From contig JAUVAR010000002.1 of NCBI GenBank assembly GCA_030591625.1, forward strand, positions 1 through 42,948: DNA of 42,948 bases, given 5' to 3'. Below, one piece after another: positions 8,679 through 24,170 of the stretch (positions within the stretch are counted from its first letter, which is position 1; the number at the start of each line of letters is the position of its first letter). The translations under genes were made by a program, and so were the position numbers. The notes under the pieces are model-generated. The model was not told where the DNA came from. It did no database searches and saw only the letters and a program-made list of their open reading frames with translations. Origin of the DNA: Candidatus Zixiibacteriota bacterium (lineage in GTDB: Bacteria; Zixibacteria; MSB-5A5; GN15; FEB-12).

Positions 8679-9590
8679 TTGCAGATAACAATTAACAACC
8701 TTTCCAAGCAGTACGCCGGTGGTAAGTTTGCCCTTCGCAATATTGATCTGACAATCAATAGCGGTATGTTCGGTCTTTTGGGTCCTAATGGTGCCGGCAA
8801 AACTACACTCATTCGAATTCTTGTAACTCTTCTTAAGCCATCCGAAGGAAAAGTAAAGATCAACGAATTAGACCTTCAAAAAGATCGCCGTGAAATCAGA
8901 AAGATGATCGGCTATCTACCTCAGGACTTTGCGACTTTCTCAAAACTTCATGTTTGGGAATTTTTAGATTATGCCGGTGCCATGTCGGGAATAAAATCGA
9001 GAAAGAAACGGATGTCAGAAGTTGACAGGCTTTTGGAAGAGGTTGGTTTGTTTGATGTTCGTGATCGTCGCGCCGACAAACTGTCGGGTGGTATGAAACG
9101 TCGTTTGGGAATTGCTCAAACATTAATTGGCGAACCATCGGTGATGATTGTCGATGAACCGACTGTCGGACTTGATCCCCACGAACGGCTGCGATTTAGA
9201 AATCTTCTCGCCGATCTTTCACGTAAAGAAATGATTATTATTCTTTCTACTCACATCGTAGGAGATATCTCCTCGACTTGTACCGATGTAGCACTACTCA
9301 ATAATGGTAAAATTTCATTCAATGGCTCGCCCGATGAATTGGTAGCATCGGCACAGGGTAAAGTTTGGCGTATAGTTTCGTCATCTTTGGAAATGGATAG
9401 CATAAGAGTTAAGTATCCGGTTATCTCGGCGGTACCTGCCGAAGAGGGTTTTGAGTTGCGTGTTGTGGCCAATGAAAAACCCGGACCAAACGCCCAAGTT
9501 GTCGAGCCTAATCTTGAAGATGCCTATATTCATTTCATGCAGTCAACAGGTTATGACATGAACCTTGAGTCGGGAGATAACGGATGGTAG
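8679..9590 (+). CDS. ABC transporter ATP-binding protein (NBD1)
   Basis: TTG is the only possible start; an in-frame TGA lies at 8664-8666. Motifs present: Walker A GPNGAGKTT (8781-8807), signature LSGGMKRR, Walker B MIVDEPTVGLD, H-loop STH. It is a clear paralogue of the C-terminal domain of ORF 18710-23443. Confidence 0.92.
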   Translation: MQITINNLSKQYAGGKFALRNIDLTINSGMFGLLGPNGAGKTTLIRILVTLLKPSEGKVKINELDLQKDRREIRKMIGYLPQDFATFSKLHVWEFLDYAGAMSGIKSRKKRMSEVDRLLEEVGLFDVRDRRADKLSGGMKRRLGIAQTLIGEPSVMIVDEPTVGLDPHERLRFRNLLADLSRKEMIIILSTHIVGDISSTCTDVALLNNGKISFNGSPDELVASAQGKVWRIVSSSLEMDSIRVKYPVISAVPAEEGFELRVVANEKPGPNAQVVEPNLEDAYIHFMQSTGYDMNLESGDNGW

Positions 9591-9614
9591 TGACATCGGA
9601 AGGATTGCTATAGT

Positions 9615-21700: not shown

Positions 21701-23443
21701 GCAAAAATTGGGGCACCATTTGCAATTACGGTTATTGGCGGTCTTTCAATCGGAACACTGTTCACACTCTTATTGATTCCTACTTTTTCTTATGGCATGC
21801 ACACCGCCTTGGTATGGTGGCATAAGCTATCATTAAGAATCAAACTGATTCAGTTAGTTGCGTTGATTGGAGCTTCATTTATGATTTATAATGGTGTTGA
21901 TTCAACTCTCTGGCAATTTGCGAATCTGATCGCAGTATTTGGAATTGTACCTGGCATTACATATTTCAGCATGACATCACTAAGACGTGCATCATCAAAA
22001 ATAATTCCTGAGACTGATCCTATCACCATCAAAATCCACAACGTTGTAAAGTTCTATGACGGCTTCTCTCGTTTCGTTAGAGAATGGCACAAAGCTGATA
22101 GACGCAATGAACACTTACAGGCAAGAGGAGAACGGTTGCCGGGCAGAAAGACGATTGATCAAATCTGGCAACTTCCACTTTGGCTTTTCCATCTATACTT
22201 TGCGTATATCCATGCCGAAAGTGGTTTCTGGATTCTGATTTTCGCTATCACTGCATATATCCATACTGTTTTGTTAGGCAGATTTATTCTTGGTATCTTT
22301 AAGAGTAACGATAATCATTCAATCAAAAGTGCAAAATGGTACCAACGCCTGCTCACTCTTATCGTCTGGATTGCCCCGGGTGCAAATATTGGATGGTGGC
22401 TCTTCGGTCATGATGCTATCGCTTCGGCAATTGTCTTTGGTACACCGTGGTATCTGGCTGTTCTAATATGGCGAACTTCGGAAATACTATATCGCAACAA
22501 AACCGATATCATGCGTCTTACCGGCAGGTTCAAAAGAACCCGCAAACTTTTTTATCGCATGGTAAAAGCTATTCCAATAATTGGTAAGAAGAAGATTCCG
22601 TTCCGTGCTCTTGATCAAGTATCATTGGAAATCGGAAGCGGCATGTTTGGACTTGTTGGTCCTAACGGTGCAGGTAAAACTACCTTGATGCGAGTTATAT
22701 GTGGAATCCTCGAACAATCGCAGGGTGTAGTGACCGTTAATGGACTTGATCTAAATGAGTACCGCGAAGAAATGCAGGCATTGATCGGATATCTTCCGCA
22801 GGAGTTTGGTACTTATGAAAATATGACGGCGTATCAATTCCTTGATTACCAGGCGATTCTTAAAGGCATCACCGAACCAACAAAACGCAAAGAGATTGTT
22901 GAACGTGCAATCAAATCAGTGCACCTGGGAGAAAAACGGAATACTAAGATAAAAGCATTCTCCGGTGGTATGAAACAACGCGTTGGTATTGCACAAACAT
23001 TATTGCATTTGCCTCGCATTCTTGTTGTTGATGAACCAACGGCCGGACTCGATCCACGCGAGCGAATAAGATTCCGTAATTTACTTGCCGATCTTGCTCG
23101 TGACAGAGTTGTTATTTTTTCTACTCACATAATTGAAGATATATCAAGTTCGTGTAATCGTCTCGCCGTCTTAACCGATGGAAAGGTCAGATTCCTCGGC
23201 ACACCTGTTGAAATGGTTAAGCTGACCGAAGGCTATGTATGGCAAGCAACTGTGAGTGAGGAGTTCTTCGAAACTTTCCGTACAAAAGCAAGAGTTGTGC
23301 ATCATATGCGTGATGGTGATGGAATAAAATTACGAGTACTCTCAAAAGAGAAACCACTGGAACAGGCAAAAGCTGTGACGCCGTCGCTTGAGGATTCATA
23401 CCTTTGGTTGCTCGATACTATGGAGACCAGAGATGACAACTAA
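18710..23443 (+). CDS. RND efflux permease (RND2) fused to extra TM helices and a C-terminal ABC ATPase domain (NBD2)
   Basis: 1577-aa uninterrupted ORF. aa 1-~1030 is an RND permease (TM4 'GMLLDNSVVVLES', TM11 'RLRPILITTITS'). aa ~1040-1095 holds 2 hydrophobic helices. aa 1105-1118, 'ITIKIHNVVKFYDG', is the NBD strand beta1. aa 1119-1295 is a hydrophobic insertion. From aa 1296 the NBD continues with Walker A GPNGAGKTT (22658-22684), FSGGMKQR, LVVDEPTAGLD and STH. Confidence 0.85.
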   Translation: MIAFIIRRPVLVAMIIAALCLLGIVAYDRLPVENQPSIELPMLIVVVGGARDSDPSYLERHAVVPLESAIAGLEDIESIESYISRNRTTVFVYYQQSTDVRYAYLKLQQRVKAVQQEMGNSFFFSVWKIDTEQLANRFMTLEARGAGDVDQIRNVIDRKVTAELQNIDGVANVAIYGGRERSVEILLDETAMAAHKLTSAQIRNAIASGNQDRQFLGHVTDGRRKHAVNLGSDLTSVENLGNIVLKEQGPVLLKHVAEVLDGASEETSISRVNGMESVSVSIIRERQANLLELAERTHEQIEKLNEQLKIDGIELIVKEDQAEAISKNIDTIKELALIGSILAIIILWLFLRNFALVLVVAGAIPISVLIALNFFYVYDLTINTLSLFGIAIAIGMLLDNSVVVLESIHRQIGLGKNPYDAVIIGAGEVWRPVMASTMTTVAVFLPFIFTDNFLIQLLGRHIGISIVSTLLVSLGVAFLIIPAFAYRFLSKKSDSSIADMNIIPRSNRMMQIYTLFLKSCLRFPARTSIISVVVLFMSIIICLAVSINSPTEVESEMFNLYATLPSGTTLDVADIQSVKMDERISDIAELKERAAQIEEDQITFSFELLEDYEDIDDRDLSAVKSAIINSLEDGFPRIDFNYEQPLSDSRYQGGGGGGMGGGGGDERAFGRLLGIGVAEEKVIIRGQDIGLLATVADDIQYNIDNMETVRRSRQSIASPRPGIDLVFSKTAVGYFGITPQAIIAELSNFQSEVSSGVSLQDGDEKISVILKNEELEERNSDDLRILQIPSNVGGTVPISQLARLVYTSSLSGINRINQEKEVEVTYTFEDDITGSKQLLDDARASIDDVIDDIIPPPGISIEVVHDELDLSEFYFLIFAAIVLIFMILASAFESLIQPLVMMFTIPLATVGAFWGLILTGNSIMNANALIGFIILLGVIVNNGIILIDYSRLLQKRNYRPTRALLMAGQARLRPILITTITSVLAMIPLAMGNTDYVAKIGAPFAITVIGGLSIGTLFTLLLIPTFSYGMHTALVWWHKLSLRIKLIQLVALIGASFMIYNGVDSTLWQFANLIAVFGIVPGITYFSMTSLRRASSKIIPETDPITIKIHNVVKFYDGFSRFVREWHKADRRNEHLQARGERLPGRKTIDQIWQLPLWLFHLYFAYIHAESGFWILIFAITAYIHTVLLGRFILGIFKSNDNHSIKSAKWYQRLLTLIVWIAPGANIGWWLFGHDAIASAIVFGTPWYLAVLIWRTSEILYRNKTDIMRLTGRFKRTRKLFYRMVKAIPIIGKKKIPFRALDQVSLEIGSGMFGLVGPNGAGKTTLMRVICGILEQSQGVVTVNGLDLNEYREEMQALIGYLPQEFGTYENMTAYQFLDYQAILKGITEPTKRKEIVERAIKSVHLGEKRNTKIKAFSGGMKQRVGIAQTLLHLPRILVVDEPTAGLDPRERIRFRNLLADLARDRVVIFSTHIIEDISSSCNRLAVLTDGKVRFLGTPVEMVKLTEGYVWQATVSEEFFETFRTKARVVHHMRDGDGIKLRVLSKEKPLEQAKAVTPSLEDSYLWLLDTMETRDDN

Positions 23444-24170
23444 CAACCAATCTTCTACATCTCTGCTCGGAAAACTTTCTACTATTATTACATTCCTTCG
23501 CTATAATGCGTCGAACATCTTTGCGGGTAAATTCTTCTACTTCCTCGGGCTTGCAGTTGCAATTTATTTTACTGTAATTATTATTTATGTCCTTGATGAA
23601 GCACTACCCCCGGATGCTGAAGTTATTTACTATATGCTGCTCGTTCCAAGTGTCTTGCTGGTTTTTTATCCATCTTGTTACTCGATACAGGCAGATGTTG
23701 ATTCACGCATGATTGAAACTCTTTTTGGCATTCCTGATTATCGTTACAAAGTCTGGCTTGTGAGAAATCTGACTCAGTATGGGGTTGTAATTATTTTATT
23801 AAGCGGGCTTGCTATTTTAAGCAGATTTGCTATTGCAGAATTCAGCATTACAATGATGCTGTACCATCTTCTATTTCCTGTGATTTTCATAGGGAGTCTT
23901 GGTTTTTTAACTTCGACAATAAGTCGTTCCGGTAATGGTACGGCGGTGATTATGGTCATAGTGTTAATGGTTTTTTGGATTTTGTCTGCAGATGTACTTG
24001 AAGAGAGCAGATGGAATCTGTTTTTTAATCCATTTGAAAAAGTTGATATGTATCAAACTGTCATGCTCGAAGCTAACACATTTTATAATCGTGTCTATTT
24101 GATTGTTGGTTCAATTATTGCAACGATGCTTGCACTATTAAGACTGCAAAAGCGAGAACGATTTATATAA
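23433..24170 (+). CDS. ABC-2-type polytopic membrane protein (putative permease 2)
   Basis: ORF 23388-24170, whose track start is a TTG. I prefer the ATG at 23433, which overlaps the upstream gene end by 11 nt. It has ~6 hydrophobic helices and no other motif. Confidence 0.55.
   Translation: MTTNNQSSTSLLGKLSTIITFLRYNASNIFAGKFFYFLGLAVAIYFTVIIIYVLDEALPPDAEVIYYMLLVPSVLLVFYPSCYSIQADVDSRMIETLFGIPDYRYKVWLVRNLTQYGVVIILLSGLAILSRFAIAEFSITMMLYHLLFPVIFIGSLGFLTSTISRSGNGTAVIMVIVLMVFWILSADVLEESRWNLFFNPFEKVDMYQTVMLEANTFYNRVYLIVGSIIATMLALLRLQKRERFI

What the first reader, a model, noticed from the sequence alone, without database searches (positions are those of the whole stretch)
8679..24170. 15.5-kb operon interleaving a heterodimeric ABC-2 transporter with a TolC-MFP-RND-RND tripartite pump
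Seven co-directional genes are separated by 12-24 nt or overlap by 4 and 11 nt. In order they are NBD1, an ABC-2 permease with a periplasmic domain, TolC, MFP, RND1, the RND2-NBD2 fusion, and ABC-2 permease 2. The locus therefore encodes exactly two paralogous NBDs. They share the same unusual C-terminal extension, 'GKVWRIVSS...EPNLEDAYIHF' versus 'GYVWQATVS...TPSLEDSYLWL'. It also encodes exactly two ABC-2-type membrane subunits, which is the parts list of one heterodimeric ABC transporter, wrapped around an MdtBC-like pair of RND permeases. The ABC genes bracket the RND genes rather than forming their own block, and one NBD is fused to RND2. Together these suggest a single physically coupled ABC/RND envelope machine rather than two neighbouring pumps.
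Basis: inference. Interest (0 to 1): 0.85.

Follow-up and report, generated by a model that had tools for sequence, protein, structure and literature searches.

The report
RND pump fused to ABC transporter
A gene cluster conserved across several bacterial phyla encodes an envelope-spanning export pump in which a proton-driven RND transporter is permanently fused to one ATPase of an ABC transporter. I found no description of this arrangement, which would join two different energy sources in one machine.

Summary
Seven co-directional genes (8679-24170) are spaced by 12-24 nt or overlap by 4 and 11 nt. They encode NBD1, a 1122-aa ABC-2 permease, an OMF, an RND-type MFP, RND1, a 1577-aa RND2-NBD2 fusion and a second ABC-2 permease.

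The fusion is real and obligate. All 15 full-length representatives that carry its linker are 1550-1585 aa.

The same gene order was found in all 14 other loci examined (Zixibacteria, Calditrichota, Bacteroidota, metagenomes), down to 20% identity. Only the OMF gene is dispensable.

New details:
- RND2 is followed by six extra TM helices.
- NBD2 is a split domain: its first strand and A-loop tyrosine lie 180-200 residues upstream of the rest, separated by a four-TM insertion.
- Permease 1 carries a periplasmic M1-aminopeptidase fold that lacks HExxH and GxMEN in all 68 family members.
- RND2 always lacks the second relay carboxylate that RND1 usually keeps.

The shared C-terminal NBD extension is ordinary for this NBD class.

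Best reading: one hybrid ABC/RND tripartite exporter. Physical coupling beyond the fusion, the substrate and the energy coupling remain inferred. No literature on such a system was found.

The parts
7603..8475 (+). Possible accessory gene: a 290-aa protein with a lipoprotein-like signal (…AFVSC) and no Pfam match.
   Evidence: A homologue (29% identity, E 2e-28) sits directly upstream of NBD1 in Zixibacteria L086. A weaker homologue lies about 5 kb upstream in L003. It is absent next to the block in the other loci, so membership is uncertain.
8476..8678 (+). 203-nt upstream intergenic region, the likely promoter region of the unit.
   Evidence: This is the only gap longer than 24 nt before the seven genes. 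It holds sigma-70-like matches at 8598-8626 and 8613-8640, which are weak consensus hits only.
8679..9590 (+). NBD1: a free-standing ABC ATPase of the DrrA/GldA/NosF class with a C-terminal domain.
   Evidence: ABC_tran E 4e-33. Walker A GPNGAGKT, LSGGMKRR, DEPT and STH are all present. Its orthologues form one clade in 27 of 30 bootstraps.
9615..10454 (+). Permease 1, membrane part: an N-terminal amphipathic helix, a six-TM ABC-2 core and a seventh TM helix.
   Evidence: ABC2_membrane_2 scores 26.9 bits against a cut-off of 27.2. The AF2 model has pLDDT 87.4 and pTM 0.85, with helices at 3-19, 21-42, 58-91, 102-135, 143-171, 174-192, 220-244 and 252-297.
10455..12983 (+). Permease 1, periplasmic part of about 840 aa: an M1-aminopeptidase-like fold without catalytic motifs, then beta-sandwich domains and Golvesin_C (aa 991-1120).
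   Evidence: Foldseek matches IRAP, ERAP1, F3 and PepN over about 650 columns at E about 5e-17. HExxH and GxMEN occur in 0 of 68 family members. Golvesin_C E 1.8e-11.
13008..14516 (+). Outer-membrane factor (TolC-like).
   Evidence: OEP scores 170 bits in two stretches. The gene is present in 11 of the 14 other loci and absent from the block in L087, L088 and L089.
14529..15587 (+). Periplasmic adaptor (MFP) of the RND type, with a lipoprotein-like signal.
   Evidence: TIGR01730 RND_mfp scores 171.8 bits against a cut-off of 94.9. N-terminal …FVVGC.
15609..18713 (+). RND1: a 12-TM RND permease that keeps two membrane carboxylates and the TM11 arginine.
   Evidence: ACR_tran 728.8 bits. TM4 'DN', TM10 'ND' and TM11 'R' are present, with a compensatory 'DD'/'SN' pair in L006.
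18710..21814 (+). RND2 part of the fusion (aa 1-1035).
   Evidence: ACR_tran 525 bits. The best solved relative is MdtB 9lyq_B. It is 29% identical to RND1. TM4 reads 'D[N/C]' and TM10 reads 'NN' in 9 of 9 orthologues.
21833..21979 (+). Extra TM hairpin (TM13-TM14, aa 1042-1090) after RND TM12.
   Evidence: AF2 helices 13-33 and 37-66 of the 548-aa model, pLDDT 85-97.
22022..22063 (+). Detached first strand and A-loop tyrosine of NBD2 (…ITIKIHNVVKFYDG…).
   Evidence: AF2 predicts a strand at aa 1107-1116. A PSSM built from the first 14 residues of free NBDs has its best linker hit at this homologous site in every fusion tested. The contiguous NBD2 matches the free-NBD HMM only from position 14-16.
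22064..22600 (+). Insertion inside NBD2: a cytoplasmic helix, four TM helices (aa 1154-1263) and another cytoplasmic helix.
   Evidence: AF2. The insertion has near-invariant aromatic residues across 99 sequences. It shows no detectable homology to ABC-2 membrane domains.
22601..23443 (+). NBD2 core (strand 2 to the C-terminal domain).
   Evidence: ABC_tran E 2.3e-29. It is 46% identical to NBD1, and all canonical motifs are present.
23433..24170 (+). Permease 2: a 245-aa, six-TM ABC-2-type permease.
   Evidence: Orthologues follow the fusion in every locus that extends past it. L088 and L087 orthologues match ABC2_membrane_2. hhalign against the permease 1 TMD gives E 2.7e-4 and probability 41%.
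24197..24228 (+). Terminator-like hairpin followed by a U-rich tract, lying between convergent genes.
   Evidence: Inverted repeat. Predicted folding energy is -15.6 kcal/mol with a z-score of -2.96.

Best explanation
The seven genes encode one hybrid tripartite exporter.

The duct is an RND assembly built from two paralogous permeases (RND1 and RND2), with an AcrA-like lipoprotein adaptor and a TolC-like channel. A heterodimeric ABC-2 module is attached to it, because NBD2 is part of the RND2 polypeptide. NBD2 is anchored by six additional TM helices, four of them inserted inside the ATPase domain. The ABC-2 module consists of NBD1 with NBD2 and permease 1 with permease 2.

Inferred working model:
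- NBD1 and NBD2 dimerise, and both have canonical catalytic motifs.
- ATP hydrolysis is transmitted through permease 1 and permease 2 to permease 1's large periplasmic domain, a catalytically dead M1-aminopeptidase-like clamshell with beta-sandwich and Golvesin_C domains.
- That domain captures a periplasmic or outer-leaflet substrate, possibly a peptide or glycoconjugate, and hands it to the RND porter domains for expulsion through the adaptor and channel.
- RND1 keeps a two-carboxylate/arginine relay and supplies proton-motive drive.
- RND2 has lost the second carboxylate and acts as the specialised protomer that docks the ATPase module. This is analogous to the division of labour in MdtB2C.

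Shown here: the gene content, the obligate fusion, the conserved synteny, the split NBD, the pseudo-peptidase fold and the relay asymmetry. Inferred: the stoichiometry, the physical contacts other than the fusion itself, the direction of transport, the substrate and the energy coupling.
For: - Gene order and spacing are as described, and the unit ends in a hairpin.
- All 15 full-length cluster representatives with the linker are 1550-1585 aa, with the linker at about 1035-1300. No complete stand-alone linker-NBD protein was seen.
- The fusion ORF is intact in L006, L007, L009, L012, L087, L088 and L089, and it is called as a 1568-aa product in the closed Zixibacteria genome CP070824.
- Fourteen other loci keep the block. 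These include Calditrichota, a Prolixibacteraceae chromosome, Bacteroidales MAGs and permease-1 homologues of only 20-26% identity.
- NBD1 and NBD2 are paralogues (46% identity). The clades are supported in 27/30 and 29/30 bootstraps, and the joint clade in 19/30.
- NBD2 is split.
- Permease 1 has seven TM helices, which places its M1-like domain in the periplasm. It has no zinc or exopeptidase motifs in 68 of 68 sequences.
- The adaptor is of the RND type.
- The relay is asymmetric: RND1 has 'DN…ND' with a compensatory variant, while RND2 has 'D[N/C]…NN' in 9 of 9.
- Precedent for specialised protomers exists in MdtB2C (PMC4462101). The closest solved NBDs include NosF of NosDFY, an ABC-2 system. 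From my own knowledge, not checked here, its ATP hydrolysis acts on a periplasmic partner.
Against: - No experiment or multimer model was available, so contacts between permease 1, permease 2, NBD1 and the RND trimer are untested.
- I could not inspect model coordinates. Pairing of the detached strand with the NBD sheet therefore rests on the AF2 secondary structure plus sequence statistics.
- The six extra TM helices could themselves provide the membrane partner of NBD2, which would change the parts list.
- RND1 and RND2 both deviate from the canonical AcrB D407/D408/K940 relay, so proton coupling of either is not certain.
- Neighbouring genes differ from locus to locus and give no hint of the substrate.
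- Relatives of the ABC half (NBD plus ABC-2/M1 permease, L071) exist without RND genes, so that half can in principle work alone.
- In some MAGs the RND2 ORF is broken (L002/L003, L091-L093). These breaks are probably assembly errors, but decay is not excluded.
Confidence: 0.62

Rival explanations
1. There are two pumps in one operon. An ABC-2 exporter (NBD1/NBD2/permease 1/permease 2) and an RND exporter (RND1/RND2) each transport on their own and only share the adaptor, the outer-membrane channel and their regulation. The fusion merely secures co-localisation or equal dosage.
For: ABC-2 plus M1-type permease modules with a single NBD exist without RND genes (L071). ABC exporters that use adaptors and TolC are well known (MacAB-TolC, review PMC8277102). 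Both NBDs look catalytically complete.
Against: The fusion and its 260-residue linker with six TM helices are kept at fixed length over deep divergence. The six core genes never occur apart in the 14 loci examined. There is only one adaptor gene, and it is of the RND type. A tethered NBD2 forces the ABC module to sit next to RND2 in any case.
Confidence: 0.15
2. The module is an ATP-dependent regulator or assembly device. The ABC module does not move substrate. It senses a periplasmic ligand through the dead M1-like domain and uses ATP binding and hydrolysis to gate, assemble or reset the RND/adaptor/channel complex.
For: Permease 1's periplasmic domain is a pseudo-enzyme. ABC modules that act as mechanotransmitters rather than transporters are known from my own knowledge (FtsEX, LolCDE, NosDFY). 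NosF is among the closest solved NBDs. RND2's relay is degenerate.
Against: No sensor or regulator partner is conserved next to the block. Two full ABC-2 membrane domains are retained. This reading is not separable from the main model with the present data.
Confidence: 0.15
3. The 1577-aa ORF is an artefact: a missed stop codon, a frameshift or a chimeric assembly joining an RND gene to an ABC gene.
For: Many database hits are fragments shorter than 950 aa, and several MAG loci show a broken RND2.
Against: Independent assemblies from different studies give intact ORFs of 1559-1588 aa, and the closed genome CP070824 has a 1568-aa called product. Fifteen representative clusters are 1550-1585 aa long. 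The linker is conserved, with near-invariant residues, and folds confidently. The fragments lie at contig ends or in long-read MAGs with frame shifts.
Confidence: 0.01

Closest known systems
MdtABC-TolC (E. coli), the heterotrimeric RND pump MdtB2C
   Same: Both have two tandem paralogous RND permease genes with one RND-type adaptor and a TolC-type channel. MdtB is the best solved match of RND2. The idea of protomers with different jobs comes from this system (PMC4462101).
   Different: These are not orthologues: the MdtB and MdtC equivalog scores are 279-415 bits against cut-offs of 1584-1774. MdtBC has no ATPase, no extra TM helices and no ABC-2 partners. MdtB has the canonical DD…K relay, whereas here RND1 has DN…ND and RND2 has DN…NN.
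NosDFY(L), an ABC-2 system for N2O-reductase maturation (PDB 7osf, 7o0y)
   Same: NosF is among the closest solved structures to NBD2, including its C-terminal domain. JGI labels permease 1 with the NosY-type COG. From my own knowledge, not checked here, ATP hydrolysis in NosDFY acts on a periplasmic domain docked on a six-TM ABC-2 permease.
   Different: NosD, NosL and NosZ are absent here. This system has a heterodimer of two NBDs and two different permeases. The periplasmic domain is fused and has an M1 fold rather than a beta-helix. It is linked to RND, adaptor and OMF genes.
'ABC transporter permease/M1 family aminopeptidase' type proteins (example: L071, 1234 aa)
   Same: Both have an ABC-2 membrane domain followed by an M1-fold domain, encoded next to an NBD of about 300 aa from the same class.
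   Different: L071 has two ABC-2 domains in one chain and an intact HEIAH zinc motif, with no RND, adaptor or second NBD. Permease 1 has one ABC-2 domain plus TM7, no HExxH or GxMEN, and added Golvesin_C.
MacAB-TolC and other ABC-driven tripartite pumps
   Same: In both, an ABC ATPase works with a periplasmic adaptor and a TolC-like channel (PMC8277102).
   Different: MacB has the FtsX/MacB_PCD fold. Here the permeases are of the ABC-2 type and the adaptor is of the RND type (MacA scores 50.5 bits against a cut-off of 342). The review treats ABC, RND and MFS pumps as separate classes, and a search of the held first 300,000 of about 748,000 characters found no ABC-RND hybrid.

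Membership tests
ABC ATPase (PF00005) | Walker A, Q-loop, LSGGQ-type signature, Walker B with catalytic Glu, H-loop. | tested here: met
   NBD1 and NBD2 have GPNGAGKT, LPQ, LSGGMKRR / FSGGMKQR, VDEPT and STH. ABC_tran E 4e-33 and 2.3e-29.
ABC ATPase (PF00005) | A contiguous domain with the first strand and A-loop aromatic residue directly before strand 2 and Walker A. 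| tested here: not met
   Met for NBD1. Not met for NBD2: in all orthologues it matches the free-NBD HMM only from position 14-16. The strand and Tyr lie 180-201 residues upstream.
ABC-2 type permease (PF12679 ABC2_membrane_2) | Pfam gathering score, and a six-TM core with a cytoplasmic motif after TM2. | tested here: inconclusive
   Permease 1 scores 24.4-26.9 bits against a cut-off of 27.2, and several of its homologues carry PF12679. Permease 2 of the window has no hit; its orthologue in L088 scores 27.8 bits and the one in L087 scores 21.7 bits. AF2 and hydropathy agree with a six-TM core.
RND permease, HAE-1 type (PF00873; NF033617) | The ACR_tran profile over 12 TM helices and two large periplasmic loops. 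| tested here: met
   RND1 scores 728.8 bits and RND2 scores 525.2 bits. NCBIfam subfamily NF033617 scores 625 and 474 bits, below its cut-off of 1250.
RND permease, HAE-1 type | A proton relay equivalent to AcrB D407, D408, K940 and R971. | tested here: not met
   RND1 has D-N (TM4), N-D (TM10) and R (TM11). RND2 has D-N/C, N-N and R in 9 of 9 orthologues. A neighbouring unrelated RND in L009 shows the canonical DD…K.
MdtB / MdtC | NCBIfam equivalog cut-offs (NF007798 1584 bits; NF007905 1774 bits). | tested here: not met
   Scores are 392 and 415 bits for RND1 and 279 and 255 bits for RND2.
MdtB / MdtC | Assembly as a 2:1 heterotrimer. | not testable with these tools
   Only single-chain prediction was available. 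The pairing of the two RND genes is conserved in all loci.
RND-type periplasmic adaptor (TIGR01730) | The curated cut-off. | tested here: met
   171.8 bits against a cut-off of 94.9.
Outer membrane factor (PF02321) | Two OEP repeats. | tested here: met
   170 bits in two stretches. The TolC subfamily model TIGR01844 scores 95.3 bits, below its cut-off of 225.
M1 aminopeptidase | The multi-domain M1 fold. | tested here: met
   Foldseek gives E about 5e-17 over about 650 columns to IRAP, ERAP1, F3 and PepN.
M1 aminopeptidase | The HExxH(+E) zinc site and the GxMEN exopeptidase motif. | tested here: not met
   Both are absent in the window protein and in 68 of 68 homologues. HExxH is present in the free-living relative L071.
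NosDFY | The NosD, NosL and NosZ partners. | tested here: not met
   No such genes occur in the window or the related loci.
GldA (gliding ABC ATPase, TIGR03522) | The equivalog cut-off of 402.6 bits. | tested here: not met
   186.4 bits (NBD1) and 174 bits (NBD2).

The most novel reading that the evidence does not exclude
This is a dual-energised envelope machine. One assembly mechanically couples ATP hydrolysis by the NBD1/NBD2 dimer to a proton-driven RND trimer. NBD2 is wired into the membrane through a four-TM insertion inside the ATPase fold. ATP drives either the relay-deficient RND2 protomer or a periplasmic pseudo-peptidase 'loader' that feeds the RND porter. This would be a new class of tripartite transporter alongside the ABC-, RND- and MFS-driven ones.
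Probability: 0.35. Interest if true: 0.92.

Novelty: new variant of a known kind. Interest (0 to 1): 0.8.

Why it matters
Tripartite pumps are classified by a single inner-membrane motor: ABC, RND or MFS (PMC8277102). Here a conserved family ties an ABC ATPase covalently to an RND permease and surrounds it with the remaining ABC parts.

If the parts work together, four consequences follow:
- ATP-driven and proton-driven transport can be combined in one machine.
- It gives a natural test case for how RND protomers specialise.
- It reveals an ABC domain that tolerates a four-helix membrane insertion.
- It assigns a role to a widespread but unstudied class of ABC-2 permeases with M1-like periplasmic domains.

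The family occurs in Bacteroidota lineages with cultivable relatives (Prolixibacteraceae, Draconibacterium), so it may be open to experiment.

Tried and rejected
- **Exact look-up of the fusion protein:** it is not on record.
- **Homologue search with linker plus NBD:** the listed hits are all shorter than 950 aa. I first suspected a length limit in the database. The permease-1 search disproved that. Those whose loci I examined (L001, L002, L091-L093) are pieces of frame-shifted MAG genes, and others carry 'partial' in their NCBI names.
- **Genome scan with a single protein:** it gave only 3 loci.
- **Metagenome scan:** it used generic ABC motifs, so 73 of its 80 loci were unrelated free-standing NBDs. 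They served as an outgroup.
- **Third homologue search, with the linker alone:** it returned nothing.
- **Idea that the six extra TM helices are a hidden ABC-2 membrane domain (2 TM, loop, 4 TM topology):** hhalign probability was below 1% against both permease profiles, so there is no support.
- **Idea that permease 1's C-terminal domain is cytoplasmic:** this came from a six-TM hydropathy count. I rejected it after AF2 showed a seventh TM helix.
- **Promoter and terminator consensus scan inside the block:** terminator-like sites were at the level of shuffled sequence (14 found, 14.4 expected), so it was not informative.
- **Rfam:** no matches.
- **Pfam at relaxed thresholds for the upstream 290-aa protein:** nothing found.
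- **Literature searches for an RND-ABC fusion, PF00873 with PF00005, golvesin, and ABC permease/M1 aminopeptidase:** nothing relevant found.

Full report
**1. Observation.** The ORF map reproduces the finding. The genes are 8679-9590, 9615-12983, 13008-14516, 14529-15587, 15609-18713, 18710-23443 and 23433-24170, all on the + strand. The gaps are 24, 24, 12 and 21 nt, followed by overlaps of 4 and 11 nt. A 203-nt gap precedes the first gene. A hairpin followed by a U-rich tract lies 27 nt after the last gene, before a convergent gene; its predicted energy is -15.6 kcal/mol and its z-score is -2.96. Inside the block, terminator-like sites are no more frequent than in shuffled sequence. A single transcription unit is therefore plausible but not shown.

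**2. Gene products.**
- Gene 1 is a 303-aa ABC ATPase of the DrrA/GldA/NosF class.
- Gene 2 (1122 aa) has a weak ABC2_membrane_2 match at its N-terminus, a weak Peptidase_M1 match and a Golvesin_C domain.
- Gene 3 is an OEP-type outer-membrane factor.
- Gene 4 is an RND-type adaptor, scoring 171.8 bits on TIGR01730 against a cut-off of 94.9.
- Genes 5 and 6 carry full ACR_tran domains. Gene 6 continues into an ABC_tran domain at aa 1301-1445.
- Gene 7 (245 aa, six hydrophobic helices) has no Pfam hit itself. Its orthologues in L088 and L087 match ABC2_membrane_2, and L088 scores 27.8 bits against a cut-off of 27.2.
- A profile comparison with the membrane part of gene 2 gives E 2.7e-4 and probability 41%. 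Both permeases share a charged motif after TM2.

**3. The fusion is real and obligate.** I searched 1.84 billion cluster representatives with the linker alone (aa 1040-1300) and found 73 clusters. All 15 full-length ones are 1550-1585 aa, with the linker at about 1035-1300. Intact fusion ORFs of 1559-1588 aa occur in independent assemblies: L006, L007, L009, L012, L087, L088 and L089. A closed Zixibacteria genome has a 1568-aa product. The many shorter database hits include entries that NCBI labels 'partial', and those whose loci I examined are pieces of frame-shifted MAG genes.

**4. Anatomy of the fusion.**
- AF2 on aa 1030-1577 with 99 homologues gave pLDDT 86.8 and pTM 0.74.
- After RND TM12 the order is as follows:
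  - a TM hairpin (aa 1042-1090);
  - a beta strand at 1107-1116 (IKIHNVVKFY);
  - a cytoplasmic helix;
  - four TM helices (1154-1263);
  - another helix;
  - only then strand 2 and Walker A, from aa 1298.
- The strand is the detached first strand and A-loop tyrosine of NBD2. Four observations support this:
  - BLAST pairs it with the N-terminus of NBD1.
  - An HMM of free-standing NBDs matches every fusion only from position 14-16.
  - A PSSM of the first 14 residues of free NBDs has its best linker hit at this homologous site in all fusions, 180-201 residues upstream of strand 2. The z-score is 2.6-5.2 in eight of ten orthologues.
  - Lys and Tyr of this segment are nearly invariant.
- I could not inspect coordinates, so strand pairing itself is inferred.
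- The six added helices show no homology to ABC-2 membrane domains.

**5. Permease 1.**
- AF2 gave pLDDT 87.4 and pTM 0.85. The model shows an N-terminal amphipathic helix, a six-TM core and a seventh TM helix that carries the remaining 840 residues or so to the periplasm.
- Foldseek matches that part to M1 aminopeptidases (IRAP, ERAP1, tricorn factor F3, PepN) over about 650 columns at E about 5e-17.
- HExxH and GxMEN are absent from the window protein and from all 68 aligned homologues. Other residues (Y561, E570, E598, H528) are invariant or nearly so.
- The domain is therefore a conserved pseudo-peptidase, followed by beta-sandwich domains and Golvesin_C.
- A free-living relative (L071) has two ABC-2 domains, an M1 domain with an intact HEIAH motif and a single adjacent NBD, but no RND genes.

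**6. Synteny.**
- From the permease-1 side I examined L003 (Calditrichia), L004 (Calditrichota), L005 (Prolixibacteraceae chromosome), L086 (Zixibacteria), L090, and the very distant L087, L088 and L089 (20-26% identity).
- From the fusion side I examined L006, L009, L012, L091, L092 and L093.
- Every locus shows the same order: NBD1, permease 1, [OMF], adaptor, RND1, RND2::NBD2, permease 2, as far as the DNA reaches.
- The OMF gene is missing from the block in L087-L089.
- Flanking genes differ in every locus.
- The permease-1 family comprises 106 clusters, all about 1100-1260 aa. They are named 'hypothetical' or given the NosY-type COG label.
- Source names point to Zixibacteria, Acidobacteriota/Aminicenantes, Krumholzibacteria, Latescibacterota, Calditrichota, Spirochaetales and Bacteroidales/Prolixibacteraceae/Draconibacterium.
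- The window's closest relatives are Zixibacteria, at 50-58% identity.

**7. The NBDs.**
- NBD1 and NBD2 are 46% identical from strand 2 to the end, and both have complete catalytic motifs.
- In a neighbour-joining tree with 71 free-standing relatives, each forms its own clade (27/30 and 29/30 bootstraps). Together they form a clade in 19/30. This gives moderate support for a duplication within the system.
Free-standing NBDs of about 300 aa at unrelated loci align through it, and TM_1403 and NosF match it structurally.

**8. The RND pair.**
- RND1 and RND2 are 29% identical.
- MdtB is the best solved match of RND2, but the MdtB and MdtC equivalog cut-offs are far from met.
- At the AcrB-type relay positions, RND1 has D-N in TM4 and N-D in TM10 in 10 of 12 orthologues that cover TM10. 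L006 has D-D with S-N, which looks compensatory.
- RND2 has D-N (or D-C) and N-N in 9 of 9 orthologues.
- The TM11 arginine is kept in both.
- RND2 therefore lacks a second carboxylate and the lysine. This fits a specialised, perhaps non-protonating protomer, as proposed for the unequal subunits of MdtB2C (PMC4462101).
- RND2 orthologues also share a glycine-rich insertion of variable length in the porter domain.

**9. Interpretation.**
- The conserved fusion, the strict co-occurrence of the six core genes, the single RND-type adaptor and the one-each count of NBD1, NBD2, permease 1 and permease 2 are best explained by one assembly. In that assembly an ABC-2 heterodimer is bolted to an RND heteromer.
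- A 2:1 RND1:RND2 trimer would present exactly one NBD2 to pair with one NBD1. This is an inference.
- I propose that ATP hydrolysis acts through the permeases on the periplasmic pseudo-peptidase domain, which loads substrate into the RND porter.
- The alternatives are two pumps sharing accessories, or an ATP-dependent gate or assembly device. The data cannot separate these from the main model.
- An assembly artefact is excluded.

**10. Novelty.** Full-text searches found no description of an RND-ABC fusion or of this cluster. A large 2021 review treats ABC, RND and MFS pumps as separate classes, and the held part of its text mentions no ABC-RND hybrid. All the components belong to known families, so I rate this a new variant of a known kind. 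There is a substantial chance that it represents a new class of dual-energised pump.

**11. Limits.**
- Only single-chain structure prediction was available, and model coordinates could not be inspected.
- The loci examined are a sample of 14, not a census.
- The tree is a simple distance tree.
- No expression or biochemical data exist.

Noticed in passing
window 20651-20713 (RND2 aa 648-668): RND2 has a glycine-rich insertion (…YQGGGGGGMGGGGGDE…) in its periplasmic porter domain. All RND2 orthologues have a Gly-rich insert of variable length at this site, and RND1 has none.
   Followed up: partly
window 7603-8475: A 290-aa lipoprotein-like protein with no family match has a homologue directly upstream of the block in Zixibacteria L086 (29% identity, E 2e-28) and a weaker one about 5 kb upstream in L003. 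It may be a lineage-specific accessory.
   Followed up: partly
L006:3810-6899 versus the other RND1 orthologues: The RND1 of L006 has TM4 'DD' with TM10 'SN', where the others have 'DN' with 'ND'. This apparent compensatory swap of the second membrane carboxylate argues that RND1's relay is functional.
   Followed up: partly
L087, L088, L089: The most distant versions of the block (permease 1 at 20-26% identity) lack the outer-membrane factor gene between permease 1 and the adaptor.
   Followed up: no
L002/L003 19255-23341; L091 7035-11959; L092 4780-12691; L093 7417-12496: The RND genes are split into several ORFs in these MAG assemblies, and in L092 both RND1 and RND2 are broken. In L093 about 2.6 kb between RND1 and the remaining fusion piece holds only small opposite-strand ORFs. 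This could be assembly error or decay of the gene.
   Followed up: no
L071:10740-14441: This is a free-living 1234-aa protein with two ABC-2 membrane domains and an M1 peptidase domain carrying an intact HEIAH motif. It follows a single NBD gene and has no RND genes. It is a likely relative of the ancestor of the ABC half.
   Followed up: partly
window 1425-2729 and 5385-6650 (- strand), with 3731-5385 between them: Two multihaem c-type cytochromes (Paired_CXXCH, MtrC/MtrF-like domain hits) flank TPR proteins, one of them fused to an AhpC/TSA-redoxin domain. A redoxin gene also lies near the block in L086.
   Followed up: no
window 24254-30696 (- strand): Convergent with the block lie an amidohydrolase, a PD40 beta-propeller protein and a TldD/PmbA metallopeptidase pair. 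These peptide-processing genes are not conserved next to the block elsewhere.
   Followed up: no
window 24197-24228: A hairpin followed by a U-rich tract lies between the convergent genes. It is probably a terminator closing the unit.
   Followed up: yes
window 7000-25000: Sigma-70-like promoter matches are more frequent than in shuffled sequence (69 found against 39 ± 6 expected) and lie on both strands. This is probably a composition effect in this 42% GC DNA rather than real promoters.
   Followed up: no
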